From the IMG/VR virus record IMGVR_UViG_3300043410_001708, positions 42,270 through 106,269 of that record: a DNA stretch of 64,000 nucleotides. One strand, 5' to 3'. Each line of letters begins with the position of its first letter. Within the stretch, counting starts at the first letter, position 1. This document shows, in pieces, positions 4,192 through 14,626 of this stretch. This stretch comes from a virus. Below the pieces are notes generated by a model that was given only the letters and a program-made list of their open reading frames with translations, did not search any database and was not told the DNA's origin. A program made the position numbers and the translations under genes.

Positions 4192-4264
4192 TGGTTGCGG
4201 GTCACGGAGTTGCACCGGAACTGAGGATTATGAGCCCACTGTGATACTATTTCACCAACCCGCT
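4192..4264 (-). tRNA. tRNA-Met(CAT), initiator-like
   Basis: Cloverleaf, loop CTCATAA, 1:72 mismatch, GGG in anticodon stem, encoded CCA; atypical T loop TGCAACT. Confidence 0.75.
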
Positions 4265-4451
4265 ATATTTCTTGTTTTTTCTGACGTTGAAGATTTTGTT
4301 CTAAAATTCTGTCAAATTCTTCTTGTTCAGCTTTAGCATCTTCTATTTCTTTTGGTGATGGTTTTCTAAAAATCTTGTCGTAGTTATTAGCAAATGTTTC
4401 CTGTGAAACACTAAATGGTCTTGGACTAGAACCTTTACCACCATCAGACAT
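4263..4451 (-). CDS. Small hypothetical protein (GGKGSxPRP N-terminus)
   Basis: 62 aa ORF directly after groES. Confidence 0.65.
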   Translation of the reverse strand: MSDGGKGSSPRPFSVSQETFANNYDKIFRKPSPKEIEDAKAEQEEFDRILEQNLQRQKKQEI

Positions 4452-4453
4452 AT

Positions 4454-4699
4454 TTATTCTCCGTAGATATAAGCAATATCTTCAATCTTCACTACAAAAT
4501 AATCTTGCACTGTTACAGCTTTACCCCAATCTGGTTGCACCACATCACCAATCTGTAACTCAGTAACATCTGGTCCAACTGCAAGTACTTTTGCTCTATC
4601 AGGTTCTTCGGAGTGTCTTAGGATGATTCCTGAAGCGGTCTGTTTAACATTCTCAAGCCGTTCAATCAATACTTTATCGTGCAAGGGTTTAATATTCAT
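4454..4699 (-). CDS. groES: Co-chaperonin GroES/Cpn10
   Basis: MNIKPLHDKVLIE...TASGIIL...VLAVGP; start moved to ATG 4699 behind GAGGA. Confidence 0.9.
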   Translation of the reverse strand: MNIKPLHDKVLIERLENVKQTASGIILRHSEEPDRAKVLAVGPDVTELQIGDVVQPDWGKAVTVQDYFVVKIEDIAYIYGE

Positions 4700-4712
4700 A
4701 ATGTCCTCAAAA

Positions 4713-4779
4713 TGGAGCGGTCTTCTGCTTTGCTCAGATAACACAAGGGGGTGCCTTGTATCGTACTATTACAAACCGC
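4713..4779 (-). ncRNA. Degenerate tRNA-Gly-like RNA
   Basis: Acceptor GCGGTTT/AGACCGC-T-CCA intact; reduced D arm, non-canonical anticodon and T loops. Confidence 0.55.
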
Positions 4780-4785
4780 ATTAAA

Positions 4786-4859
4786 TGGAGCGGGATATCA
4801 GAATCGAACTGATGACGAAAGATTGGAAATCTCTAGTTTTGCCATTAAACTAATCCCGC
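4786..4859 (-). tRNA. tRNA-Gly(TCC)
   Basis: Anticodon arm AGAGA-TTTCCAA-TCTTT, TTCGATT T loop, CCA. Confidence 0.92.
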
Positions 4860-4935
4860 ATATAACTATATATGCATCATTTTAAAACACACATAATGCA
4901 TTTTAAAATGAGGACTCTTGCGAGTCCCCATACCA

Positions 4936-6363
4936 TCACAATACTTTGTAACGGTCATCCATGATGGTTTTAAGCATCACAGATTCTGGTGTAAAGGTTT
5001 CTAAGTCACCCGCCAACAGTGGTTTTACGACTGCTGGTGAGAAACCAGATACCAATGCAGTACCAGAAGTGTCGAACTTTACTGGAGCGTTGCCGTATGC
5101 GGCATTCAAGTTCCAGAATACAACCTTTGGCAAAGTGTATCCTGCTTCTTTGTACTTACGTGCAATCATCTGCATAGCAGAGTCATCATGTCTAACGCAA
5201 GCGTTAAATTGCATGTCTGACAGAATCAATACCATCGCTGGCATTTCTTCTTGTGGCACGCCACCTTTTACTGCTACATCAAGGATTTTTGCAAATGCCT
5301 TGTGTAGGTCGGTAGACATACCCCAATCAGATTTAACCATTTGGTCAATCTTTTGATTGATGTTACCTTTCAAGTGCAACAATTCTGGATTGGTAGAGAA
5401 AGTTAGGAAGGTGTCCTTGAACTTGCCTTCATTCTTATCTGCCAAGTATAGTCCCAAAGAGACTGCTACTTCCAAACAGGTTAGACCTGATTTGGAACCA
5501 TAACCACCTGCAGCGCAGGTCATTGAACCAGAAACATCCACCAAAGGTAGAATGTTTGCATCGCCAACAAAGTTAGGCAAAGCCTCCCATTGTTTTTGCA
5601 CCAAGTCCAATTCGGTCTTGTCGAATTTCATGTAACCACCGATACGGCCTTTCAGCACATCGTATGGGAACACAGCACCTGCATTAACCTTAACTTCTGG
5701 ATTATCACCCTTAACCAACGAAGCAACATATGCTGCATAAGTTGGAGTGTTACGGTTAAAAGCCTTCTTGTAACGGGATGCCGCTACGGAAGGTACGTGT
5801 GAGAAATTGATGGAATCCCAGTCTTTCGCACACATTTGAGTTTCAACCACTTTGGTCATTTCAACCAAAGACTTACGGTAAAACTTTGGGGACATACCAA
5901 AGAACTGACGGATTTCAGCCGCTAGTTTACCTTGGCGAGGAGTCCACTTTGCAGCCAATCCATTCTTCGCACGAAGCGCATCACCCAACATAGTGAATGC
6001 TGCTGACTTCATAACATCAGAATCGAATACAAAAATGTCGTCCCAACGGCCCAATTCAGGAACCTTTGTCAACAATGCTTTTGCGGCTTCTACGTCATTC
6101 TTTTCCAAATAACGCAAGATAGTACGGAACGATTCACGTTCACCGGCACCACCACGAGCATCACGTAACCAAGCAGCAACACGCAAAGCGAGTTCACGGT
6201 TTTCTGCCATTGCAGCTGCGAAAGCAGGCACAATGTTTTTGCCACGGGAAGCACCTGCATTGTAGAACAAATCTACAACTGCATTAGCAGTGGACTTACG
6301 AGCCTTCATACCGTTTGCGGTACGGGCATCTTGATTAACAACGGCATCTACAAAAGTTGACAT
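4936..6363 (-). CDS. Ro60/TROVE-like helical domain + vWA protein (DUF2828-type)
   Basis: N-terminal DLF, RDARGGAGER, GRWDD, AKWTPR motifs; C-terminal vWA MIDAS DVSGSM...STD...ILSDMQF...FWNL. Confidence 0.8.
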   Translation of the reverse strand: MSTFVDAVVNQDARTANGMKARKSTANAVVDLFYNAGASRGKNIVPAFAAAMAENRELALRVAAWLRDARGGAGERESFRTILRYLEKNDVEAAKALLTKVPELGRWDDIFVFDSDVMKSAAFTMLGDALRAKNGLAAKWTPRQGKLAAEIRQFFGMSPKFYRKSLVEMTKVVETQMCAKDWDSINFSHVPSVAASRYKKAFNRNTPTYAAYVASLVKGDNPEVKVNAGAVFPYDVLKGRIGGYMKFDKTELDLVQKQWEALPNFVGDANILPLVDVSGSMTCAAGGYGSKSGLTCLEVAVSLGLYLADKNEGKFKDTFLTFSTNPELLHLKGNINQKIDQMVKSDWGMSTDLHKAFAKILDVAVKGGVPQEEMPAMVLILSDMQFNACVRHDDSAMQMIARKYKEAGYTLPKVVFWNLNAAYGNAPVKFDTSGTALVSGFSPAVVKPLLAGDLETFTPESVMLKTIMDDRYKVL

Positions 6364-6384
6364 AACTTACTCCTCATAAAAAAA

Positions 6385-6504
6385 CAACAGAATACATTTT
6401 TTAGCGCACTACCAATTGTGCTATTCACGCCGAAGCGTAAAACAGGATTCGAACCTGTAACCTCTCCGTTATAAGCGGAAAAATTGTTTGCTGTGAGTAT
6501 TCTA
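6385..6504 (-). ncRNA. Y-RNA-like element E1 carrying a circularly permuted tRNA-Ile(UAU)
   Basis: Terminal stem AGAATAC/GTATTCT, ACAGCAA motif; inside, in order: anticodon arm, T arm, acceptor closed by UUCG, D arm. Confidence 0.8.
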
Positions 6505-6508
6505 AAAA

Positions 6509-6664
6509 CAACAGGTTAGCTTTCTACTTTTTGTTTACAGTGAGAAATCGAAACTCACCTTCGTTAGGACCATTTCAATAAACACCTTCAAAGGTCGAAA
6601 CCTCCAGTGTTTACCATAGTTACCTAACAGTTCAGTATTATTGAATAATGCTGTAACTAACCTA
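6509..6664 (-). ncRNA. Y-RNA-like element E2
   Basis: Terminal stem AGGTTAG/CTAACCT, ACAGCA motif, TGTTG tail; multi-hairpin interior with T-arm-like GTGAG-TTTCGATTT-CTCAC. Confidence 0.7.
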
Positions 6665-6692
6665 AAACCTTTTCAATCTTTCAATACTGTGT

Positions 6693-6744
6693 ATTGTAAC
6701 ACAAAAATTTGTTGTAGTCAAGCAGTATGTTGTAAACATACCAC
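6693..6744 (-). promoter_or_regulatory. Sigma70 promoter with upstream palindromic site, driving E2-E1-Ro-like gene
   Basis: TTGACT-17-TACAAT; GTTGT-N6-ACCAC at 6729-6744, 7 bp from the -35. Confidence 0.75.
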
Positions 6745-6750
6745 AATATT

Positions 6751-6824
6751 TGGTGCCCCATGACAGAATCGAACTGCCGTACCCGGATTACAAAACCGGT
6801 GTAATACCATTATACTAATAGGGC
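6751..6824 (-). tRNA. tRNA-Thr(TGT)
   Basis: Anticodon loop TTTGTAA, cloverleaf, CCA. Confidence 0.92.
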
Positions 6825-6832
6825 AAAAAACT

Positions 6833-6907
6833 TGGAGCGGGTAGTGGGAATCGAACCCACAACTAAACCTTGGCAAGGTCTTGTGTTACCACTAGCACCA
6901 TACCCGC
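6833..6907 (-). tRNA. tRNA-Gly(GCC)
   Basis: AGACC-TTGCCAA-GGTTT, CCA. Confidence 0.93.
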
Positions 6908-6916
6908 ATCATGTGT

Positions 6917-6945
6917 ATTATATATGCTTTACAAACAATTGTCAA
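6917..6945 (-). promoter_or_regulatory. Sigma70 promoter for tRNA-Gly(GCC)/Thr(TGT)
   Basis: TTGACA-17-TATAAT. Confidence 0.85.
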
Positions 6946-6965
6946 GCACATTTTTAAAAAATATT

Positions 6966-7049
6966 TGGTACGAGTAACCGGAGTCGAACCGGTACGCACA
7001 AGGCGGCAGATTTTAAGTCTGCTGGGTCTACCAATTCCCCCATACTCGC
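6966..7049 (-). tRNA. tRNA-Leu(TAA)
   Basis: GCAGA-CTTAAAA-TCTGC, long variable arm, CCA. Confidence 0.93.
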
Positions 7050-7050
7050 A

Positions 7051-7635
7051 TCACATGGCAGGTCCGTTTCCATTACGGAAACCGACCTCACCACCTTCTT
7101 CTTTGATTCGTTTCATAACATCTTCAAAAAGAATAGGACGAAAATCTGTTTGTTCAACACAAACACAATGATAACGAACATCTGGTGTGTCCAGTTCTTG
7201 ACCTCCGTTCCATGTCATCATCACACGACCTGTATGAAGGTGACCGTGAATGTTTGTTCCGAAACGACCAAGACTGGCGGGATGAATTGGAATATGTGAA
7301 AGAATCATTCCGTTCATTACATGATACGCACGAAGTTCACGGAAGTGTATTCTATATTCATCATCACGGAAGATATCGTGGTTACCACGAATAAGAACTT
7401 TATCACCGTTAAGTCTATGCATAATGCTAAGTGCTTTACGATTGATTACAACATCACCAAGATGATATACTTTATCAGTTGGCTTTACTGTTTCGTTCCA
7501 ACGCTTAACCATTTCTTCATCCATTTCATTTGGATCGGTCCATGGTCTAATCTTTTCACCTGTTATGGAGTCGGTGAATCTACACACACCAGCGTGACCA
7601 AAGTGTGTGTCACTTACTAAAAATACTGATGGCAT
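7051..7635 (-). CDS. Calcineurin-like metallophosphoesterase
   Basis: SDTHFGH, HLGD, GNHD, HGHLH motifs; start moved to MPSVFLVSD behind AGGAG. Confidence 0.9.
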   Translation of the reverse strand: MPSVFLVSDTHFGHAGVCRFTDSITGEKIRPWTDPNEMDEEMVKRWNETVKPTDKVYHLGDVVINRKALSIMHRLNGDKVLIRGNHDIFRDDEYRIHFRELRAYHVMNGMILSHIPIHPASLGRFGTNIHGHLHTGRVMMTWNGGQELDTPDVRYHCVCVEQTDFRPILFEDVMKRIKEEGGEVGFRNGNGPAM

Positions 7636-7653
7636 AATAAACTCCTGAAAAAA

Positions 7654-7728
7654 TGGCCCGGCGTGAGGGAATCGAACCCCCATTCGCACTTTAGAAGAAT
7701 GCTGTCCTATCCATTGAACGAACGCCAG
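7654..7728 (-). tRNA. tRNA-Arg(TCT)
   Basis: Loop CTTCTAA, cloverleaf, CCA. Confidence 0.9.
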
Positions 7729-7733
7729 AAAAA

Positions 7734-8174
7734 TCATACTCGGATGTATTCGTAATTAACTGTTTCTTCATTTTCTCTAAAAACAATAGCGCCGTTCTTC
7801 AAGTGAAAACGCTTTGCCATTTCAGTTTTTGGAGATAATGTCACAAATCTTTTTATGTATGGCATATTATTTTCTATGTGTGATACTGCATCAAATATAA
7901 GTGTTCCACCAGCACCTGGTGCATAACTCCATATTGTATAAAATACCGCAATCTCTGGATCGTTTACCTTTTCAAACAATTCAGATTCTTTTGTCGGAAC
8001 ATTTGTCTGATAACTTACGCATGTGATTGCTAATACTTTACCATTTGTATCCCGAAGAACAAAAATATCTTTGTTATTACCTACTCTTTCCGTAGTTGGA
8101 ATGTTAGGCCTGACAGGATCTTCATCCAATAAATTAAAAAAACTATCTGTGATGGATTTTATAATATGTAACAT
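7734..8174 (-). CDS. Small GNAT-fold protein resembling the malonyl-CoA decarboxylase catalytic domain
   Basis: AVFYTIWS, FVTLSP and RFHLKNGA recall the MCD motifs AVFYSIS, FxTLSP and RFHLxNGA. Confidence 0.6.
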   Translation of the reverse strand: MLHIIKSITDSFFNLLDEDPVRPNIPTTERVGNNKDIFVLRDTNGKVLAITCVSYQTNVPTKESELFEKVNDPEIAVFYTIWSYAPGAGGTLIFDAVSHIENNMPYIKRFVTLSPKTEMAKRFHLKNGAIVFRENEETVNYEYIRV

Positions 8175-8190
8175 GATAACTTAAATATAA

Positions 8191-8267
8191 TGGTGCCCCA
8201 GAGGAGACTCGAACTCCTAAAATTTGGTTTCTAAGACCAACACGTATACCAATTCCGTCACCGGGGC
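8191..8267 (-). tRNA. tRNA-Leu(TAG), short variable loop
   Basis: TTGGT-CTTAGAA-ACCAA, 77 nt, A73, CCA. Confidence 0.88.
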
Positions 8268-8280
8268 AATAAATACTTAT

Positions 8281-8505
8281 ATGATACCTTACGAACAAAG
8301 ACAAACAGTAAAACCACTTTATGAGTTATTCTCAAATGAAACATATGTGCCTCATGCTTATTATTGTATTGAATCTGATTTTATCGAATCATATGTTACT
8401 GAGATAAAATCTTTTAATGATGATGAAATATATATTCAACCTGAAAAAGAGTTTGTCTTAACAACATTAAAACAAGTTGGTGCTCCTACTAAGAATCGAA
8501 CTTAG
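8281..8505 (+). CDS. Hypothetical acidic protein, antisense within the tRNA array
   Basis: ATG at 8281 preceded by late-promoter-like ATAAATA; fills the gap between two tRNAs, 3' end overlaps tRNA-Thr(GGT). Confidence 0.45.
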   Translation: MIPYEQRQTVKPLYELFSNETYVPHAYYCIESDFIESYVTEIKSFNDDEIYIQPEKEFVLTTLKQVGAPTKNRT

Positions 8506-8551
8506 GATACATCCTTACCATGGATGTGGTATGCCATTTACCTATAAGAGC
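8478..8551 (-). tRNA. tRNA-Thr(GGT)
   Basis: CATCC-ATGGTAA-GGATG, CCA. Confidence 0.9.
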
Positions 8552-8556
8552 ATGAT

Positions 8557-8631
8557 TGGTGGGTCGTCAGAGAATCAAACTCTGTTCTTCCGGTTAAGAG
8601 CCGGTTGCTTCATCACTTAAGCTTACAACCC
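8557..8631 (-). tRNA. tRNA-Lys(CTT)
   Basis: CCGG-CTCTTAA-CCGG, CCA. Confidence 0.88.
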
Positions 8632-8634
8632 ATA

Positions 8635-8711
8635 TGGTACCCAAGGTGGGATTCGAGCCCACATAATCTTGCTTTTGAGACAAGCACGTATACCAATTCC
8701 GTCACTTGGGT
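8635..8711 (-). tRNA. tRNA-Leu(CAA), short variable loop
   Basis: CTTGT-CTCAAAA-GCAAG, 77 nt, same D arm as Leu(TAG), CCA. Confidence 0.88.
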
Positions 8712-8716
8712 ATATA

Positions 8717-8818
8717 CAACAGGATAGTTTTTTTACAGTGGGAATTGAACCCACAAGGTTTGCTTAGAAGGCAAATTGCGAACCATTCGCATGTGAATTT
8801 TTTGCTGAACCTATCCTA
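8717..8818 (-). ncRNA. Y-RNA-like element E3 carrying a tRNA-Arg(UCU) mimic
   Basis: Stem AGGATAG/CTATCCT, TCAGCAA; D-like arm, TTTGC-CTTCTAA-GCAAA, GTGGG-TTCAATT-CCCAC; no CCA. Confidence 0.8.
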
Positions 8819-8823
8819 AAACT

Positions 8824-8899
8824 TGGTGCTGCCTAGTAGAATCGAACTACTTTCCGAGGTTCTTCAGACCCCTGCTATGACCACATCAGCTAAAGCAGC
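8824..8899 (-). tRNA. tRNA-Phe(GAA)
   Basis: GGGGT-CTGAAGA-ACCTC, CCA. Confidence 0.92.
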
Positions 8900-8907
8900 A
8901 TATTGAA

Positions 8908-9074
8908 TTTGTAAGTATTGGGACCTCCCTCATTTCCCAACATTTTACCGGTATTTTCTGTGAAGCGGCCGACCGGTTAGAGGTACGTAGTAATAGTTGA
9001 TACTTGGCATCGGCAAAGCACTATCCTCATTCTTGTATGCCTACAAAAACTTTCTCAACATCTACACTTACAAA
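8908..9074 (-). ncRNA. Structured inter-tRNA RNA (unknown)
   Basis: 9-bp closing stem TTTGTAAGT/ACTTACAAA with internal stems GGCAT/ATGCC, ACCGGT/ACCGGT, TTGGGA/TCCCAA. Confidence 0.5.
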
Positions 9075-9077
9075 ACT

Positions 9078-9152
9078 TGGTACCTTGTGACGGGATCGAA
9101 CCGCCGACCTTCTCCTTGTAAGGGAGACACTCTACCGCTGAGTTAACAAGGC
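9078..9152 (-). tRNA. tRNA-Val(TAC)
   Basis: TCTCC-CTTACAA-GGAGA, CCA. Confidence 0.93.
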
Positions 9153-9165
9153 ATAAAATTTACTT

Positions 9166-9240
9166 TGGGGAGATATATGAGAATCGAACTCATGATAACG
9201 GAATCACAACCCGTGGTTTTGCCACTAAACTAATATCTCC
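9166..9240 (-). tRNA. tRNA-His(GTG)
   Basis: Loop TTGTGAT, G-1:C73, CCA. Confidence 0.92.
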
Positions 9241-9288
9241 CCAAAGTAAACTTTGGAATTTTTAACCGTGTTTATTCACGGGGGTCTG

Positions 9289-9777
9289 TTAGACCTGCAA
9301 AGCTTCTTGTTCTGCCAAGATTCTTTTCAATCTGTCAGCACAAAAACTTGCAGCTGGTGCGTCTGGTTTAACCATAGGTGTCATGTTACATGTACCCTTG
9401 ATATAACCAATCGCTTGTTGTACAACACATGAACTTCCGTACAAGTCATCTTTGTTTAAGTCCAAATGAACTTCAACATGGAAATCTTCTAATACATCAG
9501 CCAAGTCTTGGAACAATTCTGAAACCTTATACACTTCGGTCATTAACCGCATTGCAGGTTTACTTTTCTTATGGTCATAATCCAACTCACGTTGAACGAA
9601 ACCAAAAATCTTACAACCATGGCGGCCATCAATATGAACTACGACAGCCAAAGCATAGTCTGCATACCATACACCGTTTACACGGATACGTTCTGAGTCA
9701 GCACCCAAATATACTTTCGTATCTGGTCCTTGACTTGCAAGGAATTGCTTAACTTCTTGTATGTCGAACTTTTTCAT
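9289..9777 (-). CDS. RNase H-like YkuK-family protein
   Basis: VYLGADS, LMTEV, EVHLDLN, AASFCAD acidic motifs; start moved to MKKFDIQ. Confidence 0.75.
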   Translation of the reverse strand: MKKFDIQEVKQFLASQGPDTKVYLGADSERIRVNGVWYADYALAVVVHIDGRHGCKIFGFVQRELDYDHKKSKPAMRLMTEVYKVSELFQDLADVLEDFHVEVHLDLNKDDLYGSSCVVQQAIGYIKGTCNMTPMVKPDAPAASFCADRLKRILAEQEALQV

Positions 9778-9807
9778 ATCAATCACCTTTCTTTTTTTTA
9801 CTAACAC

Positions 9808-9881
9808 TGGCATCCCGACAGGGACTCGAACCCCGACCAACAGTTTTGGAGACTGGTATGCTGCCATTACACTATCGAGAT
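9808..9881 (-). tRNA. tRNA-Trp(CCA)
   Basis: CAGT-CTCCAAA-ACTG, G73, CCA. Confidence 0.92.
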
Positions 9882-9887
9882 ATAATA

Positions 9888-9951
9888 CAACAGGATAGAT
9901 TTTACTTTTCAAGTTACAAGTTTGAAGTATTTTATTGCTGTTACTATCCTA
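9888..9951 (-). ncRNA. Y-RNA-like element E4 (minimal)
   Basis: Stem AGGATAG/CTATCCT, ACAGCAA, single hairpin with anticodon-like loop CTTGTAA. Confidence 0.75.
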
Positions 9952-9955
9952 AAAA

Positions 9956-10029
9956 TGGTCCTCAGAACAAGAATCGAACTTGTGATGGCCGGTTATCAGC
10001 CGACTGTTATACCATTTAACTATCCGAGG
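9956..10029 (-). tRNA. tRNA-Ile(GAT)
   Basis: GTCGG-CTGATAA-CCGGC, CCA. Confidence 0.92.
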
Positions 10030-10033
10030 AATA

Positions 10034-10109
10034 TGGAGGGTCTTGAGGGATTCAAACCCCCGACCAATTGCTTCGTAGGCAACTACTCTGTTCACTGAGC
10101 TAAAGACCC
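10034..10109 (-). tRNA. tRNA-Arg(ACG)
   Basis: GTTGC-CTACGAA-GCAAT, CCA. Confidence 0.92.
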
Positions 10110-10115
10110 ATAATC

Positions 10116-10190
10116 TGGTGGTTCAGGTGAGAATCGAACTCACACAAGGCACCGTATGAAGATGCTGCACTGCCACTATGCTACTGAACC
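10116..10190 (-). tRNA. tRNA-Met(CAT), elongator-like
   Basis: GCATC-TTCATAC-GGTGC, fully paired acceptor, CCA. Confidence 0.85.
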
Positions 10191-10195
10191 AAATT

Positions 10196-10270
10196 TGGTG
10201 GACCGAGGGGGAATCGAACCCCCAACTGTGACTTGCAAGGCCACTGTGTTCCCAATTATACCATCAGCCC
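10196..10270 (-). tRNA. tRNA-Ala(TGC)
   Basis: GTGGC-CTTGCAA-GTCAC, G3:U70, CCA. Confidence 0.93.
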
Positions 10271-10326
10271 AAATTTGTTGTTGACAATTTATCTCATTAT
10301 ACGCCGTCAACAAAGGCGAGTATTAC

Positions 10327-10400
10327 TGGTCTCGGTGGCAAGAATCGAACTTGCGCCACATGCTCCCAAAGCACGGATGATACCATTTCACCACACCGAG
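10327..10400 (-). tRNA. tRNA-Pro(TGG)
   Basis: CGTGC-TTTGGGA-GCATG, CCA. Confidence 0.92.
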
Positions 10401-10406
10401 AAAATA

Positions 10407-10470
10407 CAACAGGATCGTTTTTGTCGCTAGACATCCAAAAGTTAGCTTGTTTATTGCTGAACCGATCCTA
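10407..10470 (-). ncRNA. Y-RNA-like element E5 (minimal)
   Basis: Stem AGGATCG/CGATCCT, TCAGCAA, TGTTG tail, small internal hairpin GCTA...TAGC. Confidence 0.75.
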
Positions 10471-10474
10471 AAAC

Positions 10475-10549
10475 TGGCTCCACAGGCAGGGATCGAACCT
10501 ACGACCAATTGATTAACAGTCAACTGCACTACCGCTGTGCTACTGTGGA
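10475..10549 (-). tRNA. tRNA-Asn(GTT)
   Basis: GTTGA-CTGTTAA-TCAAT, CCA. Confidence 0.93.
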
Positions 10550-10556
10550 ATATATC

Positions 10557-10631
10557 TGGCGGTCCCAAGGGGTAACGATCCCCTTCTTTATGCGTGACAG
10601 GCATACGTGCGTCCATGAACACTTTGAGACC
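10557..10631 (-). tRNA. tRNA-Asp(GTC)
   Basis: TATGC-CTGTCAC-GCATA, atypical T loop ATCGTTA, CCA. Confidence 0.88.
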
Positions 10632-10635
10632 AAAT

Positions 10636-10827
10636 ATTAGTACAAGCTACTGATTTTCCACGTCAGCCCTTGATTGAGCGGTTTCTCTGTCCATCCCTTT
10701 TATCTGGTACCTGTGTGCAGAGGGATACTGCCTATCAGAGCCTGAGTATTTCTCTCGCTAACGGTTTTCTGCCACCGGATCTCTATCGTTAATCAAACGC
10801 TACTTTAACGAAAAGTAGTAACGAGAT
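10636..10827 (-). ncRNA. Structured inter-tRNA RNA (~190 nt, unknown)
   Basis: GC-richer spacer with nested stems CTACTTT/AAAGTAG, TTGATT/AATCAA, CTCTG/CAGAG, TATCCCT/AGGGATG, GCTGA/TCAGT. Confidence 0.55.
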
Positions 10828-10828
10828 T

Positions 10829-10915
10829 TGGTGGAGACGGTGTGAGTCGAACACACAATGCCCTGAGGGCGGCGGATTTACAGTCCACTGGGGTTACCAA
10901 TTTTCCTACATCTCC
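10829..10915 (-). tRNA. tRNA-Tyr(GTA)
   Basis: GTGGA-CTGTAAA-TCCGC, long variable arm, CCA. Confidence 0.93.
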
Positions 10916-10923
10916 AAATTTTT

Positions 10924-10998
10924 TGGTAGGGGCACAGAGAATCGAACTCTGATTATCTGGTTAAAAGCCAGGTACTTTCGCCGTTAAGTTATACCCCC
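10924..10998 (-). tRNA. tRNA-Lys(TTT)
   Basis: CTGG-CTTTTAA-CCAG, CCA. Confidence 0.92.
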
Positions 10999-11004
10999 AT
11001 AATT

Positions 11005-11132
11005 TACCATTTGTTTTGCTGACGCACTATATGCTATGCTTCAACGGAATAGCTGCAGCGTTACCGTTTATTAACATAGTTACTCAGCATTGAACGTTTC
11101 TGCTGTGGCTTACATCAGCAAAACAAATGGTA
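11005..11132 (-). ncRNA. Structured spacer closed by a perfect 18-bp stem
   Basis: TACCATTTGTTTTGCTGA (11005-11022) is the exact reverse complement of 11115-11132; two internal hairpins. Confidence 0.6.
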
Positions 11133-11202
11133 CACCTAAGGAGAATCGAACTCCTCTTTCCGCCTTGAAAGGGCAGCGTCCTAACCGATAGACGATAGGT
11201 GC
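11128..11202 (-). tRNA. tRNA-Glu(TTC)
   Basis: CTGCC-CTTTCAA-GGCGG, CCA. Confidence 0.92.
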
Positions 11203-11205
11203 AAA

Positions 11206-11231
11206 AAACTACAACAAATTTTTAAAGAACA
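11206..11231 (-). promoter_or_regulatory. boxA-containing 26-nt leader repeat, copy 2
   Basis: TGTTCTTTAAAAATTTGTTGTAGTTT, identical to 12075-12100; resembles rrn boxA TGCTCTTTAACA. Confidence 0.75.
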
Positions 11232-11259
11232 TTTGATTGATTTCTCAATTCATAGATGA

Positions 11260-11311
11260 AGTATAACACAACCATGAATCTCTGTCAACCAGTGTGTTGT
11301 ATTTCTACAAC
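11260..11311 (-). promoter_or_regulatory. Sigma70 promoter with upstream palindrome
   Basis: TTGACA-17-TATACT; GTTGT-N6-ACAAC at 11296-11311, 7 bp from the -35. Confidence 0.85.
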
Positions 11312-11316
11312 GTGTT

Positions 11317-11392
11317 TGGAGTAGGTGACAGGAATCGAACCTGCATACAAGTGGTTTGCAATCACTTCCCTAGCCTTTCGGGTCACACCTAC
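11317..11392 (-). tRNA. tRNA-Cys(GCA)
   Basis: Loop TTGCAAA, U73, CCA. Confidence 0.9.
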
Positions 11393-11628
11393 ACTAATTT
11401 TTTCCTTGAACTACGGTGTGTTTCATCACGCCGCATAGTCCAATCGTAAGAGTTACCATCTGGTAACTTCTTATCTTTAACTTCATCATATCCAAACTTA
11501 CCAACGAATTCCATTTCACCATTAGTGATTGTTACGAATTCGTTAACAGTCTTGGCAAAGAACATTGCACCTGACAATGTTTCATGTTTCCATTCTTTCA
11601 ATTTTGTTTTTACTATCCACATACTCAT
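11389..11628 (-). CDS. Hypothetical protein
   Basis: 79 aa ORF filling the gap between two tRNAs. Confidence 0.6.
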   Translation of the reverse strand: MSMWIVKTKLKEWKHETLSGAMFFAKTVNEFVTITNGEMEFVGKFGYDEVKDKKLPDGNSYDWTMRRDETHRSSRKKLV

Positions 11629-11636
11629 CTTTCATT

Positions 11637-11728
11637 TGGTACCAGCGGTGAGAATCGAACTCACTCAAGAACGCTAATCTGGCGCTAAAAGGTGTATAAG
11701 ACCTCTCTGACTACCAAGTCTCGCTGGC
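11637..11728 (-). tRNA. Non-canonical tRNA with TAT anticodon (Ile/AUA) and long variable arm
   Basis: Acceptor GCCAGCG/CGCTGGT-A-CCA, mini D arm GACT-TGGT-AGTC, loop CTTATAC, variable stem, normal T arm. Confidence 0.75.
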
Positions 11729-11730
11729 AT

Positions 11731-11820
11731 TGGTGGAGAGTCAGGGAGTCGAACCCTGTGACCTACTTTCGTAAATCTACGGATTAGCAATCCGCTGCAT
11801 TACCATCCTGCCCACTCTCC
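11731..11820 (-). tRNA. tRNA-Ser(GCT)
   Basis: GCGGA-TTGCTAA-TCCGT, long variable arm, CCA. Confidence 0.92.
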
Positions 11821-11826
11821 GAATTT

Positions 11827-11916
11827 TGGTGGAAGCGGTGAGATTCGAACTCACGGACCCTTTCGGATCGGCAGTTTTCAAGACTGCTGCAATAAACCGG
11901 ACTCTGCCACACTTCC
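11827..11916 (-). tRNA. tRNA-Ser(TGA)
   Basis: GCAGT-CTTGAAA-ACTGC, long variable arm, CCA. Confidence 0.92.
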
Positions 11917-11997
11917 ATATAGAAACACACTACTGGCTATACACTCAGCGTCCCAAGTGCTACCAGAATCTAACTGGCGTAATGTGTTTTTATATGG
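11915..11997 (-). ncRNA. Structured spacer closed by an 18/19-bp stem
   Basis: 11915-11933 pairs with 11979-11997; two internal hairpins form a three-way junction. Confidence 0.55.
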
Positions 11998-12070
11998 CAG
12001 GGGTTATCAGATTCGAACTGATGATGACGATTTCAAAGACCGTTGCCTTAGGCCACTAGGCGAAACCCCA
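11995..12070 (-). tRNA. tRNA-Gln(TTG)
   Basis: ACGGT-CTTTGAA-ATCGT, G73, CCA; first tRNA of the array. Confidence 0.9.
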
Positions 12071-12074: not shown

Positions 12075-12100
12075 AAACTACAACAAATTTTTAAAGAACA
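12075..12100 (-). promoter_or_regulatory. boxA-containing 26-nt leader repeat, copy 1
   Basis: TGTTCTTTAAAAATTTGTTGTAGTTT just downstream of a promoter and upstream of the first tRNA. Confidence 0.75.
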
Positions 12101-12107
12101 AGTGTGT

Positions 12108-12158
12108 ATTGTAACAGAACCAAAGGTCCTGGCAACTACACTGTTGTATTGAAACAAC
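12108..12158 (-). promoter_or_regulatory. Sigma70-like promoter with upstream palindrome
   Basis: TTGCCA-16-TACAAT with extended -10 TG; GTTGT-N6-ACAAC at 12143-12158, 7 bp from the -35. Confidence 0.7.
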
Positions 12159-12162
12159 AAAC

Positions 12163-12196
12163 AAAAAACCCTAGTAGATTTCTCTTACTAGGGTCT
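12163..12196 (-). terminator. Intrinsic terminator (attenuator 3:4 hairpin)
   Basis: ACCCTAGTA/TACTAGGGT 9-bp stem followed by TTTTTGTTTG. Confidence 0.85.
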
Positions 12197-12227
12197 TGTG
12201 TTTGGAGTCTTTTTTAGAACTTCTGTT

Positions 12228-12341
12228 TTAGTTCTCCATCTTCACACAAAACCCGGTTGCAATCGCCCATGAGCTATCAGCGCAATTAACTGTGCGATAC
12301 TCTGGTTGCAACGTAAAGGGTTTATGAGATATGAGAGACAC
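12228..12341 (-). CDS. Putative attenuator leader peptide (37 aa, all 20 amino acids)
   Basis: GTG start after AGAAAG; MSLISHKPFTLQPEYRTVNCADSSWAIATGFCVKMEN; lies between a promoter and a terminator with overlapping alternative stems. Confidence 0.7.
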   Translation of the reverse strand: MSLISHKPFTLQPEYRTVNCADSSWAIATGFCVKMEN

Positions 12342-12371: not shown

Positions 12372-12400
12372 ATTATATAGGAACTTTTTAACCTCGGCAA
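12372..12400 (-). promoter_or_regulatory. Sigma70 promoter of the leader/tRNA array
   Basis: TTGCCG-17-TATAAT. Confidence 0.8.
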
Positions 12401-12413
12401 GCGGTTTTTGAAA

Positions 12414-12947
12414 TTATTTTTTGAATCCTTGAAAAAATAATTCGGGAGTATCATTTGTTTCAAACTTATAAGAATGAAACATACTATCTATATCAAAGTT
12501 AGTACGAAAATCTTCTTCTGTAAGATTCTTGTAATATTCCCAACCTTTACCGACAGTCAGTGGACTATCTTCTGGTTTTGCATTTGATGTACCATGTTCA
12601 GGTGCACCAGTTGTCGGTACAGTAATGAAAACTAATCCGTCTTTTTTGGTCATGCGATACATGTTTTGAAATGTTTCAACCCAAAATGGATTGTGTTCAA
12701 AACAATTACATGAACCTGTTGTATCGTATGTGCCGTCTGAATGGTCAACTAATTGACCCTCGCAAACTAAATCAACACTAGGTCCTTCAGCAACATCAAC
12801 GCCAGTATAATCACAGTCTTTAAAATGACTTCTCATAGTACCATTGATATCTAAACTACCAACTTCTAAAACTTTTGCGTTATTGAAGTTTTGTGGAAAT
12901 TGTTTTGACAAATTTCTAACATATTCTTGTTGTGCTGGATGTGACAT
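12414..12947 (-). CDS. Class I SAM-dependent methyltransferase
   Basis: KVLEVGS motif I, YTGVD, CFEH. Confidence 0.85.
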   Translation of the reverse strand: MSHPAQQEYVRNLSKQFPQNFNNAKVLEVGSLDINGTMRSHFKDCDYTGVDVAEGPSVDLVCEGQLVDHSDGTYDTTGSCNCFEHNPFWVETFQNMYRMTKKDGLVFITVPTTGAPEHGTSNAKPEDSPLTVGKGWEYYKNLTEEDFRTNFDIDSMFHSYKFETNDTPELFFQGFKK

Positions 12948-12950
12948 AAT

Positions 12951-13457
12951 TTATTTCTTCCATAATATTGGTGACTCAATAATTGGTGCAGACGGGTTAA
13001 CAAAATCATCAAATGTTTCCCACAAATGTTCTGATATTGCAAACTTTGTAATCAATCCTGGTTCACGGCCATAGGCATCTATCTCCCATGGTTGAATCCA
13101 ATAATCAATTTTGTCTGGATCAATTCTCTTTCCTCTCCATCGGGTCAATTCATCGTTAGTTTCACCTTCAATGTATTGTTTCACATGAACCATTTCATGT
13201 GCCAATGTTTCTAAAATCTTCCTAGAACCAATATGTGGATGAATCTCTATCAAAAATTTTCGAGGTTGATTTCGTGTATTGTAATCTTCAATACTAGCAA
13301 AACCATATTCATCTATTTTGGTACTAAAAAGGATTTGTGTGGTGCAATTGTTTCTTATTCGTGTATTGGGTATCAATTCTTTAGCATAAAAATGGGCGGC
13401 TCTTTCAACAAAGGGCTTAAAATCTTTATCCGGACAGTTAACCACACGAATAATCAT
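12951..13457 (-). CDS. Zinc metallopeptidase-like protein
   Basis: LAHEMVHVKQ HExxH motif and downstream PWEIDA. Confidence 0.8.
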   Translation of the reverse strand: MIIRVVNCPDKDFKPFVERAAHFYAKELIPNTRIRNNCTTQILFSTKIDEYGFASIEDYNTRNQPRKFLIEIHPHIGSRKILETLAHEMVHVKQYIEGETNDELTRWRGKRIDPDKIDYWIQPWEIDAYGREPGLITKFAISEHLWETFDDFVNPSAPIIESPILWKK

Positions 13458-13500
13458 CCTAGTCTCCTAAGGGCAACATTACCCTTAGTTATTTAGATGA

Positions 13501-13953
13501 TTAGATTTTTTCTACTAAAACTTTTGCCTTTTGTAAAAACTTAATACCATCATCACTCCGATAAGAGTTCCGATATAGAATGTGGTTAATACCACTTTGG
13601 TATATAAGTTTGGCACAGTCCAAACATGGAGCATGGGTAATAAACATAGTAGCACCCATACCAGATTCGTTAGACTTAGCCAACTTGGCAATGGCGTTAG
13701 TTTCTGCATGTAATACCTCCGGGCGTGTAACTAAAATATCTTTCTTTTCTACAGGCTGGCATGTTTCAGGATCCATTACATACGGATGCGTTTCACAGTT
13801 ATTGTCCCAACCAGCCGGCATACCATTGTAGCCAATAGAAATAATCCTATCTTCTTTGACTACAATGGCACCTACATGAAGTCTACGTGCTGAGGATAAT
13901 TCTGCGAACACCTCAGCAGTTTTCATATACGCATCACGAAATTTTTGTTTCAC
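13501..13953 (-). CDS. cd: dCMP deaminase
   Basis: VGAIVV, GYNG, HAE and PCLDC motifs. Confidence 0.93.
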   Translation of the reverse strand: MKQKFRDAYMKTAEVFAELSSARRLHVGAIVVKEDRIISIGYNGMPAGWDNNCETHPYVMDPETCQPVEKKDILVTRPEVLHAETNAIAKLAKSNESGMGATMFITHAPCLDCAKLIYQSGINHILYRNSYRSDDGIKFLQKAKVLVEKI

Positions 13954-14084
13954 AGGACCTCGTAATCTTCTTTACCGCAGCCACATTCAGGACAAGTAAA
14001 GTCATCAGGTAATGTATTCCATGCACCCTCTGTTGCTTCATCATGTTCATGTCCACAAACTACACATACGTGTACTTCACTCAT
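13950..14084 (-). CDS. Rubredoxin (44 aa), not in ORF track
   Basis: MSEVHVCVVCGHEHDEATEGAWNTLPDDFTCPECGCGKEDYEVL with two CxxCG motifs. Confidence 0.92.
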   Translation of the reverse strand: MSEVHVCVVCGHEHDEATEGAWNTLPDDFTCPECGCGKEDYEVL

Positions 14085-14533
14085 TATAGTTCTCCTAATT
14101 TTTGTTGATATGCAGCTGCATGACGTTTTTCAATTTTGGATAATGCAGCAAAACGTTTTTCTGCCTTACGTAGGATATCAGAAAATTGTTCTGCGTGTAT
14201 TTTTGATTCTTCAATTTGATGGCGAGCTTCCAATGAGGCAGATAAATTGCCTTCTGTTTTTGCATCAATTTCAAATTGTGGATACATTGTAGTGAATTCG
14301 TATGTCTCACCTTCAATGGCTTTCTCCAAACATTCTTTAGTTGATGGTTTACCAATTAACAATTCCAAATGACCCCATGCATGAAGTAACTCTTGGTCTG
14401 CTGTATGTTCAAAGTGTTTTGCAACATCTTCAAAACCTTCTTCTCGAGCAATCTTCGCAAAGTAACGATATTTGATATGTGCTTGACTTTCTCCAGCCAA
14501 GGCACTCTCAAGGTTTTTAATTGTAATTGACAT
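14084..14533 (-). CDS. rbr: Rubrerythrin (short-chain, ferritin-like)
   Basis: NLESALAGES, QELLHA, GETYE, EESKIHA di-iron motifs; start moved to MSITIKN. Confidence 0.9.
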   Translation of the reverse strand: MSITIKNLESALAGESQAHIKYRYFAKIAREEGFEDVAKHFEHTADQELLHAWGHLELLIGKPSTKECLEKAIEGETYEFTTMYPQFEIDAKTEGNLSASLEARHQIEESKIHAEQFSDILRKAEKRFAALSKIEKRHAAAYQQKLGEL

Positions 14534-14551
14534 AATACTCCTTAATAAAAA

Positions 14552-14626
14552 TGGTGGGCCCACTAGGAATTGAACCTAGACTCAATGAATTATGAGTTCA
14601 CTGCTTTACCATTAAGCTATAGGCCC
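14552..14626 (-). tRNA. tRNA-Ile2(CAT), lysidine type
   Basis: GGGCCTA acceptor, GTGAA-CTCATAA-TTCAT, CCA. Confidence 0.8.

What the first reader, a model, noticed from the sequence alone, without database searches (positions are those of the whole stretch)
4192..14626. Integrated translation-rescue island: sensor, full tRNA set, tRNA mimics and RNA-end enzymes
Seen: ~30 CCA-encoding tRNAs for all 20 amino acids, interleaved with a Ro-like protein, a calcineurin-like phosphoesterase (7051-7635), a YkuK RNase H-like protein (9289-9777) and a GNAT-like protein, behind the putative attenuator. Established: bacterial Rsr/Y RNA loci usually travel with the RtcB ligase, and T4 repairs PrrC-cut tRNA with Pnk/Rnl1. 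No RNA ligase is visible in this window. Inference: the island detects tRNA loss, replaces tRNAs, and diverts or cleans up damage. The phosphoesterase might heal 2',3'-cyclic phosphate ends.
Basis: inference. Interest (0 to 1): 0.75.

Follow-up and report, generated by a model that had tools for sequence, protein, structure and literature searches.

The report
Phage tRNA array with add-on modules
This is the tRNA gene cluster of a large freshwater T4-like phage, holding several separate tRNA-related add-ons (a likely translation-sensing switch, a Ro60-shaped protein with its own small RNAs, a nuclease) rather than one proven rescue-and-repair machine.

Summary
There are 29 tRNA genes for all 20 amino acids, all on the minus strand and all with an encoded CCA. 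Between them lie a Ro60-fold DUF2828 protein, an intact metallophosphoesterase, a YkuK nuclease and a GNAT-fold protein.

Three modules are really tied to tRNA arrays:
- A 37-codon leader that uses all 20 amino acids and has terminator/antiterminator pairings kept in relatives.
- The Ro60-like protein with five "handle" RNAs (stem, three bases, CAGCAA) carrying anticodon-arm or tRNA-like bodies. The same pairing recurs in Felix O1, a Synechococcus phage (BUCT-ZZ01), a Pseudomonas phage and a mycobacteriophage.
- YkuK, which sits between tRNA genes in unrelated phages.

The repair half fails. No RtcB, Rnl1, Rnl2 or CCA-adding enzyme, and no clear polynucleotide kinase, is found in this contig or in three relatives at least 95% complete. 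The phosphoesterase is generic. The GNAT protein resembles malonyl-CoA decarboxylase and is missing from the closest relative.

The parts shuffle, occur without each other, and have several promoters, with unrelated genes among them. It is a mix-and-match kit.

This scan has already found the handle-RNA pairing, the 20-amino-acid leader and the YkuK link on other DNA, and reached the same reading.

The parts
12372..12400 (-). Sigma-70-type promoter of the leader transcript (TTGCCG, 17 bases, TATAAT)
   Evidence: The layout promoter, ORF, terminator is conserved in relatives.
12228..12341 (-). Leader ORF of 37 codons with a GTG start that contains all 20 amino acids. Its last codons (GGG UUU UGU GUG) can pair with the 5' arm of the terminator.
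   Evidence: Relatives keep 18-20 different amino acids in 33-42 codons. The antiterminator duplex is present in 12 of 12 variants.
12160..12200 (-). Intrinsic terminator of the leader: a stem on ACCCUAGUAG followed by a run of U
12108..12135 (-). Second promoter, between the terminator and tRNA-Gln (TTGCCA, 16 bases, TACAAT, with TG). It weakens the gating in this phage. It is absent in relatives L066 and L067.
12078..12099 (-). 22-base leader GTTCTTTAAAAATTTGTTGTAG, which resembles boxA. A second exact copy lies at 11209-11230. Each copy follows a promoter and precedes a tRNA.
   Evidence: 2 exact copies against 0 expected. The likeness to boxA is from my own knowledge.
4786..12070 (-). Main tRNA block: 27 ARAGORN tRNAs plus tRNA-Lys(CUU) at 8557-8631. 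All have an encoded CCA.
14552..14626 (-). Outlying tRNA-Met(CAU) with its own promoter at 14815-14843
11637..11728 (-). Unusual 92-base tRNA with anticodon UAU and a long extra arm whose loop reads CAGAUUA
   Evidence: It is conserved with compensatory changes in 40 related loci.
6693..6721 (-). Promoter of the unit E1, E2, DUF2828
6509..6663 (-). Handle RNA E1: stem AGGUUAG/CUAACCU, CAGCA, and a long body with a hairpin on GUGAGUUUCGAUUUCUCAC
6385..6503 (-). Handle RNA E2. Its body is a rearranged tRNA like YrlA: an anticodon-like hairpin (UAU), a T arm, a closed acceptor stem and a D arm.
   Evidence: (YrlA 36.5 bits against a gathering score of 69)
8717..8817 (-). Handle RNA E3. Its body is a cloverleaf without an acceptor stem, with an Arg UCU anticodon arm.
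9888..9950 (-). Handle RNA E4. Its body is one hairpin with loop CUUGUAA, like the anticodon loop of tRNA-Thr(UGU). It lies between tRNA-Ile and tRNA-Trp.
   Evidence: 66.8 bits
10407..10469 (-). Handle RNA E5, with a hairpin body. It lies between tRNA-Asn and tRNA-Pro.
   Evidence: 70.8 bits
4936..6363 (-). Ro60-fold protein (DUF2828 + DUF7788, PHROG 850): a helical-repeat ring plus a vWA domain with an intact metal-binding site (D276, S278, S280, T351, D383)
9289..9777 (-). YkuK/DUF458 RNase H-like nuclease, set between tRNA-Trp and tRNA-His. The acidic residues D27, E81, D106 and D148 are conserved.
7051..7635 (-). Small metallophosphoesterase (phrog_547) with all five motifs intact. Its substrate is unknown.
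7734..8174 (-). GNAT-fold protein closest to the catalytic domain of malonyl-CoA decarboxylase. It is a variable accessory gene.
4195..4264 (-). tRNA-like element with anticodon CAU, an odd T loop and a 3' end that reads AACCA
12414..14563 (-). Genes in the stretch that show no RNA link: SAM methyltransferase 12414-12947, HExxH protein 12951-13457, dCMP deaminase 13501-13953, a rubredoxin-like ORF, and rubrerythrin 14084-14563. Cpn10 at 4454-4744 belongs in the same group.

Best explanation
The stretch is the tRNA region of a roughly 165-kb freshwater T4-like myovirus. It is a mix-and-match kit of separable modules, each tied to tRNAs, and not one integrated rescue-and-repair system.

(1) tRNA supply. 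A complete set of tRNAs with encoded CCA is transcribed from several sigma-70-type promoters, two of them followed by a boxA-like leader. It supplies tRNAs independently of the host. That this is its function is inferred from published work on phage tRNAs.

(2) A sensing switch. At the head of the main block, a 37-codon leader holding all 20 amino acids overlaps an antiterminator/terminator switch. Slow decoding of any codon should leave the last codons of the ORF free to pair with the 5' arm of the terminator, so that transcription runs on into the tRNAs. The architecture and its conservation are shown. The response itself is inferred. In this phage a second promoter behind the terminator weakens the gate.

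(3) A Ro60-like particle. A Ro60-fold DUF2828 protein is made next to five RNAs, some of them scattered between tRNAs. They share one handle (a 7-bp covarying stem, three bases, CAGCAA, then GUUG at the 3' end) and carry anticodon-arm or tRNA-like bodies. They are probably cut out of the tRNA precursors by the tRNA-processing enzymes and bound by the protein. The co-occurrence is shown. Binding and purpose are inferred.

(4) YkuK. This RNase H-like nuclease is co-transcribed with the tRNAs and most likely acts on tRNA or handle-RNA precursors. This is inferred from where it sits.

(5) The rest. The phosphoesterase, the GNAT/malonyl-CoA-decarboxylase-like protein, Cpn10, the methyltransferase, the HExxH protein, dCMP deaminase and rubrerythrin are accessory genes of a variable region with no demonstrated RNA role. 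No heal-and-seal RNA repair is encoded.
For: Array and proteins.

Ro60 fold. Intact metal-binding site.

Handle RNAs:
- There are 5 perfect copies in the contig, all inside the array.
- In 80 relatives there are 145 strict matches on the strand of the gene against 2 on the other strand, and one copy sits just upstream of the gene in nearly every locus.
- The 5' motif alone occurs 234 times on that strand against 16 on the other. 134 of the 234 have a perfect partner, against 0 of the 16. Stem positions 3-7 show 2 to 5 pair types, almost all Watson-Crick.
- 45 of 141 copies have a tRNA within 15 bases on both sides.
- The same handle lies beside DUF2828 in Synechococcus phage BUCT-ZZ01, Felix O1, Pseudomonas phage Milchi and mycobacteriophage Rumpelstiltskin. 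It is absent from the two sampled arrays whose phages lack the gene, RpAliso and X1.

Leader: the fold has z = -5.8. The ORF and the all-20 make-up are kept in five diverged groups, against an expected frequency of 0.05-0.5%. The antiterminator duplex is present in 12 of 12 variants, and in 8 of them no shuffle out of 300 does as well. L066 and L067 have no promoter after the terminator.

YkuK: it sits inside tRNA arrays in RpAliso, X1, Milchi, S13 and BUCT-ZZ01 and next to DUF2828 in nt-1. In relatives it has a tRNA within 150 bases in 34 of 36 loci. Its catalytic residues are conserved.

Modularity: the gene order is shuffled. There are several strong promoters.

No ligase or CCA-adding enzyme.

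RNA-library contigs from four studies cover DUF2828 and the handle RNAs but not 12403-13485.
Against: - No binding, processing or regulation has been measured.
- The recurrence of several parts in one place in distant phages could still reflect a shared pathway. S13, for example, has a tRNA array, DUF2828, a phosphoesterase, YkuK and a CCA-adding enzyme within 16 kb.
- Homologues of the phosphoesterase lie near an RNA ligase in JG004 and near a polynucleotide kinase in a T5-like phage. An RNA-end role that uses a host ligase is therefore not excluded.
- The contig is only 63% complete. The absence of a ligase rests on relatives and on Pfam models, and the Rnl1 model had no positive control.
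- Most of the comparisons are among T4-like phages, which share ancestry.
Confidence: 0.7

Rival explanations
1. This is the integrated rescue island that the first reader proposed. The leader senses tRNA loss and raises transcription of one regulon. That regulon replaces tRNAs, diverts attackers with tRNA mimics, and heals cut RNA ends with the phosphoesterase so that a host ligase such as RtcB can reseal them.
For: - The parts recur together in distant phages.
- YkuK, the GNAT-like gene and the phosphoesterase have no strong promoter of their own and lie inside tRNA transcription units.
- Homologues of the phosphoesterase lie near an RNA ligase or a polynucleotide kinase in JG004 and in a T5-like phage.
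- Published comparative work places TROVE proteins, tRNAs and calcineurin-like phosphatases among phage RNA-repair kits (PMC7824862).
Against: - No ligase or CCA-adding enzyme, and no clear kinase, in three near-complete relatives.
- The phosphoesterase matches only a hypothetical Aquifex protein, plus PdeM well below its cut-off.
- The GNAT-like protein is closest to malonyl-CoA decarboxylase and is absent from the nearest relative.
- DUF2828 and its RNAs have their own promoter, and a further promoter sits behind the attenuator.
- The parts also occur apart from each other.
Confidence: 0.12
2. The array serves only to match the phage's codon usage. The protein genes among the tRNAs are unrelated accessory genes that collect in a variable region, and the small-RNA family is selfish or is a set of decaying tRNA remnants.
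For: - Clearly unrelated genes sit in the stretch.
- The gene order is very fluid among relatives.
- Homing-endonuclease genes are common in such arrays in other phages.
Against: - The handle is conserved, with covariation, beside DUF2828 in phages of Proteobacteria, Cyanobacteria and Actinobacteria, and it is absent from arrays whose phages lack the gene.
- YkuK lies between tRNAs in unrelated lineages.
- The structure and the amino-acid completeness of the leader are conserved.
Confidence: 0.08
3. The Ro60-like protein and its RNAs work as in bacteria (Ro60, Y RNA and the exonuclease PNPase). The RNA tethers the ring to a host exonuclease or to YkuK, which then degrades misfolded or damaged structured RNA such as faulty phage tRNA precursors. 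This would be quality control, not a decoy.
For: - The Ro60 fold.
- A Thermus phage Ro60 forms a complex with its Y-like RNAs and host PNPase (PMC12135203).
- DUF2828 and YkuK are adjacent in nt-1-type Vibrio phages.
- One handle RNA resembles YrlA.
Against: - YkuK occurs without DUF2828.
- The handle differs from the known Ro-binding helix, and the match to the YrlA model is below threshold.
- The many bodies that consist of an anticodon arm alone are not explained by a tethering role.
Confidence: 0.1

Closest known systems
Ro60/Rsr with Y RNAs: bacterial and mycobacteriophage YrlA (Rfam RF02553; Chen et al. 2014, PMC4201824) and Thermus phage phiLo Ro60 with Yrl1/Yrl2 (PMC12135203)
   Same: A ring of helical repeats plus a vWA domain with a metal-binding site. 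Small RNA genes lie on the same strand next to the gene. Each RNA is closed by a stem between its 5' and 3' ends, with a conserved motif beside the stem and a variable body. One body is a rearranged tRNA like YrlA.
   Different: The sequence falls in DUF2828/DUF7788 and not in the Pfam TROVE family. It is 13-17% identical to solved Ro60 proteins. The handle (CAGCAA after a 3-base spacer) is not the known Ro-binding helix. The RNAs are many, are scattered among tRNA genes, and often carry only an anticodon-arm look-alike. No RtcB accompanies them.
Leader-peptide transcription attenuators: trpL, hisL, leuL and, closest in breadth, the whiB7 upstream ORF of mycobacteria (PMC10274678)
   Same: A short translated ORF whose 3' end competes with a terminator through an alternative hairpin. 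The M. smegmatis whiB7 upstream ORF holds 19 of 20 amino acids and responds to shortage of many of them.
   Different: This one gates tRNA genes, not biosynthetic or resistance genes. It has no run of one regulatory codon. Completeness for all 20 amino acids is kept across diverged relatives. In this phage a second promoter follows the terminator.
Phage 'tRNA provisioning plus RNA repair' kits (Iyer et al. 2021, PMC7824862; T4 Pnk/Rnl1 against PrrC)
   Same: A large tRNA set is combined with RNA-related accessory genes, including a TROVE-like protein and a calcineurin-like phosphoesterase.
   Different: The sealing half is missing: there is no Rnl1, Rnl2, RtcB or CCA-adding enzyme, and no clear kinase.
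YkuK/DUF458 (PF04308), an uncharacterised RNase H-like family (Majorek et al. 2014, PMC3985635)
   Same: A clear family member with the catalytic acidic residues present.
   Different: Nothing I could find is published on its role. Here, and in unrelated phages, it is a single gene set between tRNA genes.

Membership tests
Ro60/Rsr (TROVE + vWA) proteins | A ring of helical repeats followed by a vWA domain with a metal-binding site (DxSxS...T...D) | tested here: met
   AlphaFold model with pLDDT 88.6. The 12 best PDB matches are all Ro60, Rsr or the phiLo TROVE protein, full length, TM 0.41-0.59. D276, S278 and S280 are invariant, as are T351 and D383.
Ro60/Rsr (TROVE + vWA) proteins | Sequence membership in the Pfam TROVE family, or significant similarity to solved Ro60 proteins | tested here: not met
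   Pfam gives only DUF2828 and DUF7788. The single sequence finds nothing in the PDB. The profile reaches Ro60 only at E 0.2-0.5.
Ro60/Rsr (TROVE + vWA) proteins | Binds Y RNA and misfolded RNA; tethers PNPase | not testable with these tools
   This needs pull-down or gel-shift experiments.
YrlA Y RNAs (Rfam RF02553) | A score at or above the gathering score (69 bits), with a T arm, a closed acceptor stem, a D arm and a basal stem | tested here: not met
   E2 scores 36.5 bits with the arms well aligned. E1 and E3-E5 do not match.
DUF2828-associated handle RNAs (no published family found; seen earlier in this scan) | A covarying closing stem, a 3-base spacer, CAGCAA, on the strand of a DUF2828 gene and near it | tested here: met
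Leader-peptide transcription attenuators | A short ORF with a start codon and ribosome-binding site behind a promoter, followed by an intrinsic terminator | tested here: met
Leader-peptide transcription attenuators | Mutually exclusive pairings 1:2, 2:3 and 3:4, with segment 2 inside the end of the ORF | tested here: met
   The 2:3 duplex is present in 12 of 12 variants, with compensating changes (for example in L017 and L019).
Leader-peptide transcription attenuators | Read-through rises when decoding of the leader stalls | not testable with these tools
   This needs reporter fusions.
Heal-and-seal RNA repair (T4 Pnk + Rnl1/Rnl2, or RtcB/RtcA) | An RNA ligase is encoded | tested here: not met
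   PF01139, PF09414 and PF09511 are absent from the contig and from G001-G003, which are 95-100% complete. The Rnl1 model had no positive control.
Heal-and-seal RNA repair (T4 Pnk + Rnl1/Rnl2, or RtcB/RtcA) | A 5' kinase and an end-healing phosphatase related to known ones | tested here: not met
   There are only weak generic P-loop matches. The phosphoesterase shows no significant similarity to lambda phosphatase or Pnkp.
Calcineurin-like metallophosphoesterases (PF00149) | The five metal-binding motifs: DxH, GD, GNHD/E, H, GHxH | tested here: met
   D9/H11, G60-D61, G83-N84-H85-D86, H114 and G131-H132-x-H134. Pfam 24.1 bits against a cut-off of 21.5.
YkuK/DUF458 (PF04308) | A family match above the cut-off, with conserved acidic residues of the RNase H type | tested here: met
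   51.7 bits against 25. D27, E81, D106 and D148 are at least 95% conserved in 43 sequences.
GNAT superfamily | The GNAT fold | tested here: met
   Model with pLDDT 94.8. The best matches are the catalytic domains of malonyl-CoA decarboxylases (TM 0.68-0.84), followed by acetyltransferases.

The most novel reading that the evidence does not exclude
The modules form one counter-defence circuit against anticodon nucleases. When host nucleases deplete tRNAs, ribosomes stall on the all-20 leader and read-through rises. The same transcripts then deliver both replacement tRNAs and Ro60-like particles whose handle RNAs display look-alike anticodon arms. Across this lineage the displayed anticodons are mostly Thr UGU, Arg UCU and Lys UUU. 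Lys UUU, Thr UGU and Asn GUU are the tRNAs cut by the PARIS nuclease AriB. The particles would soak up or trap the nuclease.
Probability: 0.15. Interest if true: 0.85.

Novelty: new variant of a known kind. Interest (0 to 1): 0.55.

Why it matters
Phage tRNA arrays are now seen as weapons against host enzymes that cut tRNAs, but what the genes scattered among the tRNAs do is largely unknown. This locus shows which of them are truly tied to tRNAs (a Ro60-shaped protein with its own RNA family, the orphan nuclease YkuK, and a leader that samples all 20 amino acids) and which are bystanders. It also shows that the attractive story of one integrated sense, replace and repair machine is not supported: no ligase is encoded. 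The three real modules give testable roles to a very large protein family of unknown function (about 6,000 clusters at 50% identity) and to an uncharacterised nuclease family. Felix O1, which can be grown and manipulated, carries the same protein-RNA pair.

Tried and rejected
- A DNA search of the phage collection found only short tRNA-level matches, so no close cultured relative is known.
- The Rfam YrlA model run over ten reference phages gave only matches below threshold, mostly to ordinary or paired tRNAs. The control genomes also gave matches below the cut-off, so the result was not used.
- The models of anti-phage defence proteins matched none of the island's proteins. The NCBI family models gave only a far-below-cut-off PdeM match for the phosphoesterase.
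- The paper search for DUF2828 returned only plant and tardigrade papers. The key comparative paper on RNA repair (PMC5062991) is not held.
- The first motif search, CACAGCAAACAA with three mismatches, gave only noise.
- I considered pairing of CAGC with the 3' GUUG as a pseudoknot and rejected it on geometry. Both motifs are invariant, so covariation cannot decide.
- Depth of metatranscriptome contigs cannot rank genes. I use it only to say that RNA-library contigs cover DUF2828 and the handle RNAs, while 12403-13485 has almost none.
- I did not run a complex prediction for DUF2828 with YkuK. I do not claim that they bind, and any link would probably run through RNA.

Full report
**Context.** The window is bases 42270-106269 of a 106,269-base IMG/VR virus contig, which CheckV rates 63% complete. 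Its large genes are a portal, a tail sheath, a terminase, a baseplate connector, an SbcC-like nuclease and a helicase, so it is a T4-like myovirus. Relatives assemble to 162-167 kb, and the sequence recurs in freshwater metagenomes from 14 studies. No cultured phage is close at the DNA level.

**The observation.** ARAGORN finds 28 tRNAs at 4786-14626, all on the minus strand. Rfam adds tRNA-Lys(CUU) at 8557-8631. The 29 tRNAs cover all 20 amino acids, and each ends in an encoded CCA.

- 4936-6363 is DUF2828 + DUF7788 (PHROG 850, 'RNA-binding protein').
- 7051-7635 is a metallophosphoesterase (phrog_547).
- 9289-9777 is YkuK/PF04308.
- 7734-8174 gives a weak match to malonyl-CoA decarboxylase.

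The stretch also holds Cpn10, a SAM methyltransferase, an HExxH protein, dCMP deaminase and rubrerythrin with a rubredoxin-like ORF. None of these has an evident RNA link.

**The Ro-like protein.** By sequence it does not reach the TROVE family or any solved structure. A model built on 57 diverse homologues (pLDDT 88.6) matches Ro60, Rsr and the Thermus phage phiLo TROVE protein as its 12 best PDB hits, over the full length. The metal-binding residues of the vWA domain are invariant. The family is very large: 6,033 clusters at 50% identity and 701 phage records.

**The tRNA mimics.** Five elements in the array share one design: a 7-bp stem that differs between copies but always pairs, three bases, CAGCA(A), a variable body, the 3' strand of the stem, then GUUG.

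- In 80 related loci the strict pattern occurs 145 times on the strand of DUF2828 and twice on the other strand. One copy sits just upstream of the gene in almost every locus.
- The 5' motif alone occurs 234 times on that strand against 16 on the other. 134 of the 234 have a perfect partner, against 0 of the 16. Stem positions 3-7 show two to five pair types, nearly all Watson-Crick.
- 45 of 141 copies have a tRNA within 15 bases on both sides, so they are probably released by the tRNA-processing enzymes.
- The bodies are modular. Some are hairpins with seven-base loops that read like anticodon loops (Thr UGU 13, Arg UCU 10, Lys UUU 4 and others). Some are cloverleaves without an acceptor stem. 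Some are rearranged tRNAs like YrlA. One class carries a conserved UUUCGAUU hairpin.
- E2 matches the Rfam YrlA model at 36.5 bits, below the gathering score of 69.

The same handle stands beside DUF2828 in Synechococcus phage BUCT-ZZ01, in Felix O1 (two copies between tRNAs just after the gene) and in mycobacteriophage Rumpelstiltskin (three copies after the gene). A covariance model built from the short class also finds three copies between tRNAs in Pseudomonas phage Milchi. It finds none in the sampled tRNA arrays of RpAliso and X1, two phages that lack DUF2828. I found no paper or Rfam family for this RNA family. Earlier reports of this scan describe it on many other genomes.

**The sensor.** A promoter at 12372-12400 is followed by a 37-codon ORF (12341-12228) that holds all 20 amino acids, then by a terminator. 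The transcript folds far better than shuffled versions (z = -5.8).

The last codons of the ORF can pair either with codons 6-8 or with the 5' arm of the terminator. This is the classical arrangement of pairings 1:2, 2:3 and 3:4. The 2:3 duplex is present in all 12 leader variants that I recovered, with compensating changes, and in 8 of them none of 300 shuffles does as well.

Five diverged groups of relatives keep 18-20 different amino acids in 33-42 codons. In this phage's own proteins, a stretch of that length holds all 20 in only 0.05-0.5% of cases.

In this window a second promoter (12108-12135) lies between the terminator and tRNA-Gln, so the gate can only add to a basal level of transcription. 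In L066 and L067 there is no such promoter. The nearest precedent in breadth is the whiB7 upstream ORF. Earlier reports of this scan reached the same reading in relatives.

**YkuK.** Homologues occur in 77 phage records. YkuK lies inside the tRNA array in Ruegeria phage RpAliso (next to a peptidyl-tRNA hydrolase), in Xanthomonas phage X1, in Milchi, in S13 and in BUCT-ZZ01. It lies directly after DUF2828 in nt-1-type Vibrio phages. RpAliso and X1 have no DUF2828. In the relatives, a tRNA lies within 150 bases of YkuK in 34 of 36 loci, and on both sides in 26. For dCMP deaminase the figure is 2 of 15. The RNase H-type acidic residues are conserved. YkuK is therefore tied to tRNA arrays as such, not to the Ro-like protein.

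**The repair claim.** RtcB, Rnl1, Rnl2 and CCA-adding enzyme models find nothing in the contig. They also find nothing in three relatives that are 95-100% complete. Only weak generic P-loop matches appear. The Rnl1 model had no positive control.

The phosphoesterase has all its catalytic motifs. Its only significant match among solved structures is a hypothetical Aquifex protein, and its best NCBI family is PdeM, far below the cut-off. Its homologues occur in 2,146 phage records. In JG004 one lies about 1 kb from an RNA ligase, and in a T5-like phage one lies 3 kb from a polynucleotide kinase. An RNA-end role is thus possible in general, but here it has no partner.

The GNAT-like protein folds most like the catalytic domain of malonyl-CoA decarboxylase. 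It belongs to a virus-only family. It is absent from the relative whose DUF2828 protein is 99% identical.

**Integration.** All tRNAs and all island genes share one strand. YkuK, the GNAT-like gene and the phosphoesterase lack strong promoters of their own. Against integration:
- There are at least seven strong promoters, including one just for E1, E2 and DUF2828.
- The gene order is shuffled among relatives.
- DUF2828 heads the array in Felix O1 but lies far from any tRNA in Rumpelstiltskin.
- YkuK occurs without DUF2828.

The best reading is a kit of separable modules. Published comparative work already describes phage kits of tRNA supply plus RNA repair that include TROVE proteins. That is why I class this as a new variant of a known kind.

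**Expression.** Contigs from four metatranscriptomes of four studies cover DUF2828, the handle-RNA region and several spacers. In the same runs, 12403-13485 has almost none. This argues for RNA rather than carried-over DNA, but contig depth cannot rank genes.

**The decoy idea.** The anticodons displayed most often in the lineage (Thr UGU, Arg UCU, Lys UUU) overlap with the targets of known anticodon nucleases. [quoted passage not shown] This is a resemblance, not a test.

Noticed in passing
window 11637-11728 (-): A 92-base tRNA with anticodon UAU (Ile, codon AUA), an encoded CCA and a long extra arm. The 7-base loop of that arm (CAGAUUA or CAGAUAA) reads like an anticodon loop carrying GAU, the usual tRNA-Ile anticodon. 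It is conserved with compensatory changes in 40 of 80 related loci. The extra arm may offer the isoleucyl-tRNA synthetase a second recognition site.
   Followed up: partly
window 12078-12099 and 11209-11230 (-): Two exact copies of the 22-base sequence GTTCTTTAAAAATTTGTTGTAG. Each lies just after a promoter and just before a tRNA, and relatives keep it. It resembles the boxA antitermination element of rRNA operons (from my own knowledge).
   Followed up: partly
window 10999-11127, 10632-10828, 8900-9077, 11917-11994 (-): Four long spacers between tRNAs that are neither tRNAs, handle RNAs nor ORFs. The first is closed by a 13-bp stem (UUUGUUUUGCUGA with UCAGCAAAACAAA). RNA-library contigs show high depth over 10598-10958. 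They may be further small RNAs, like the species 1 and 2 RNAs of T4.
   Followed up: no
window 12951-13457 (-): A 168-residue protein (phrog_10499, function unknown) with an HExxH motif (HEMVH). It may be a small zinc peptidase.
   Followed up: no
window 4454-4744 (-); L095 13004-13252; L001 about 8385-8573: A GroES/Cpn10 gene lies at the edge of this tRNA array. One also lies inside the tRNA array of Xanthomonas phage X1, and one just upstream of DUF2828 in Synechococcus phage BUCT-ZZ01.
   Followed up: partly
L084 10704-10946 (Cronobacter phage S13): Directly after the DUF2828 gene of S13, the record annotates a 121-base 'tRNA-Ser' and a 113-base 'tRNA-OTHER'. Each is a tRNA interrupted by a similar insert of about 40 bases (…ACGCAAACUGA…UUUGUAUUCAGCA…). 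They may be a different kind of partner RNA.
   Followed up: no
phage records (CBB, 7t3, pEa_SNUABM_12): Several jumbo-phage records label their DUF2828 homologue 'structural protein', presumably from virion proteomics. If that is right, the Ro60-like protein may be packaged and injected.
   Followed up: no
window 6388-6502 (-): A weak Rfam match to Dictyostelium Class I RNA (15.3 bits, E 5.3). Earlier reports of this scan noted that the conserved motif of those RNAs resembles this handle (CAGCAA).
   Followed up: no
window 13950-14563 (-): A rubrerythrin gene followed by a short rubredoxin-like ORF (CxxC…CPxCG). The start of rubrerythrin overlaps tRNA-Met by 12 bases, so the real start is probably further downstream.
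   Followed up: no
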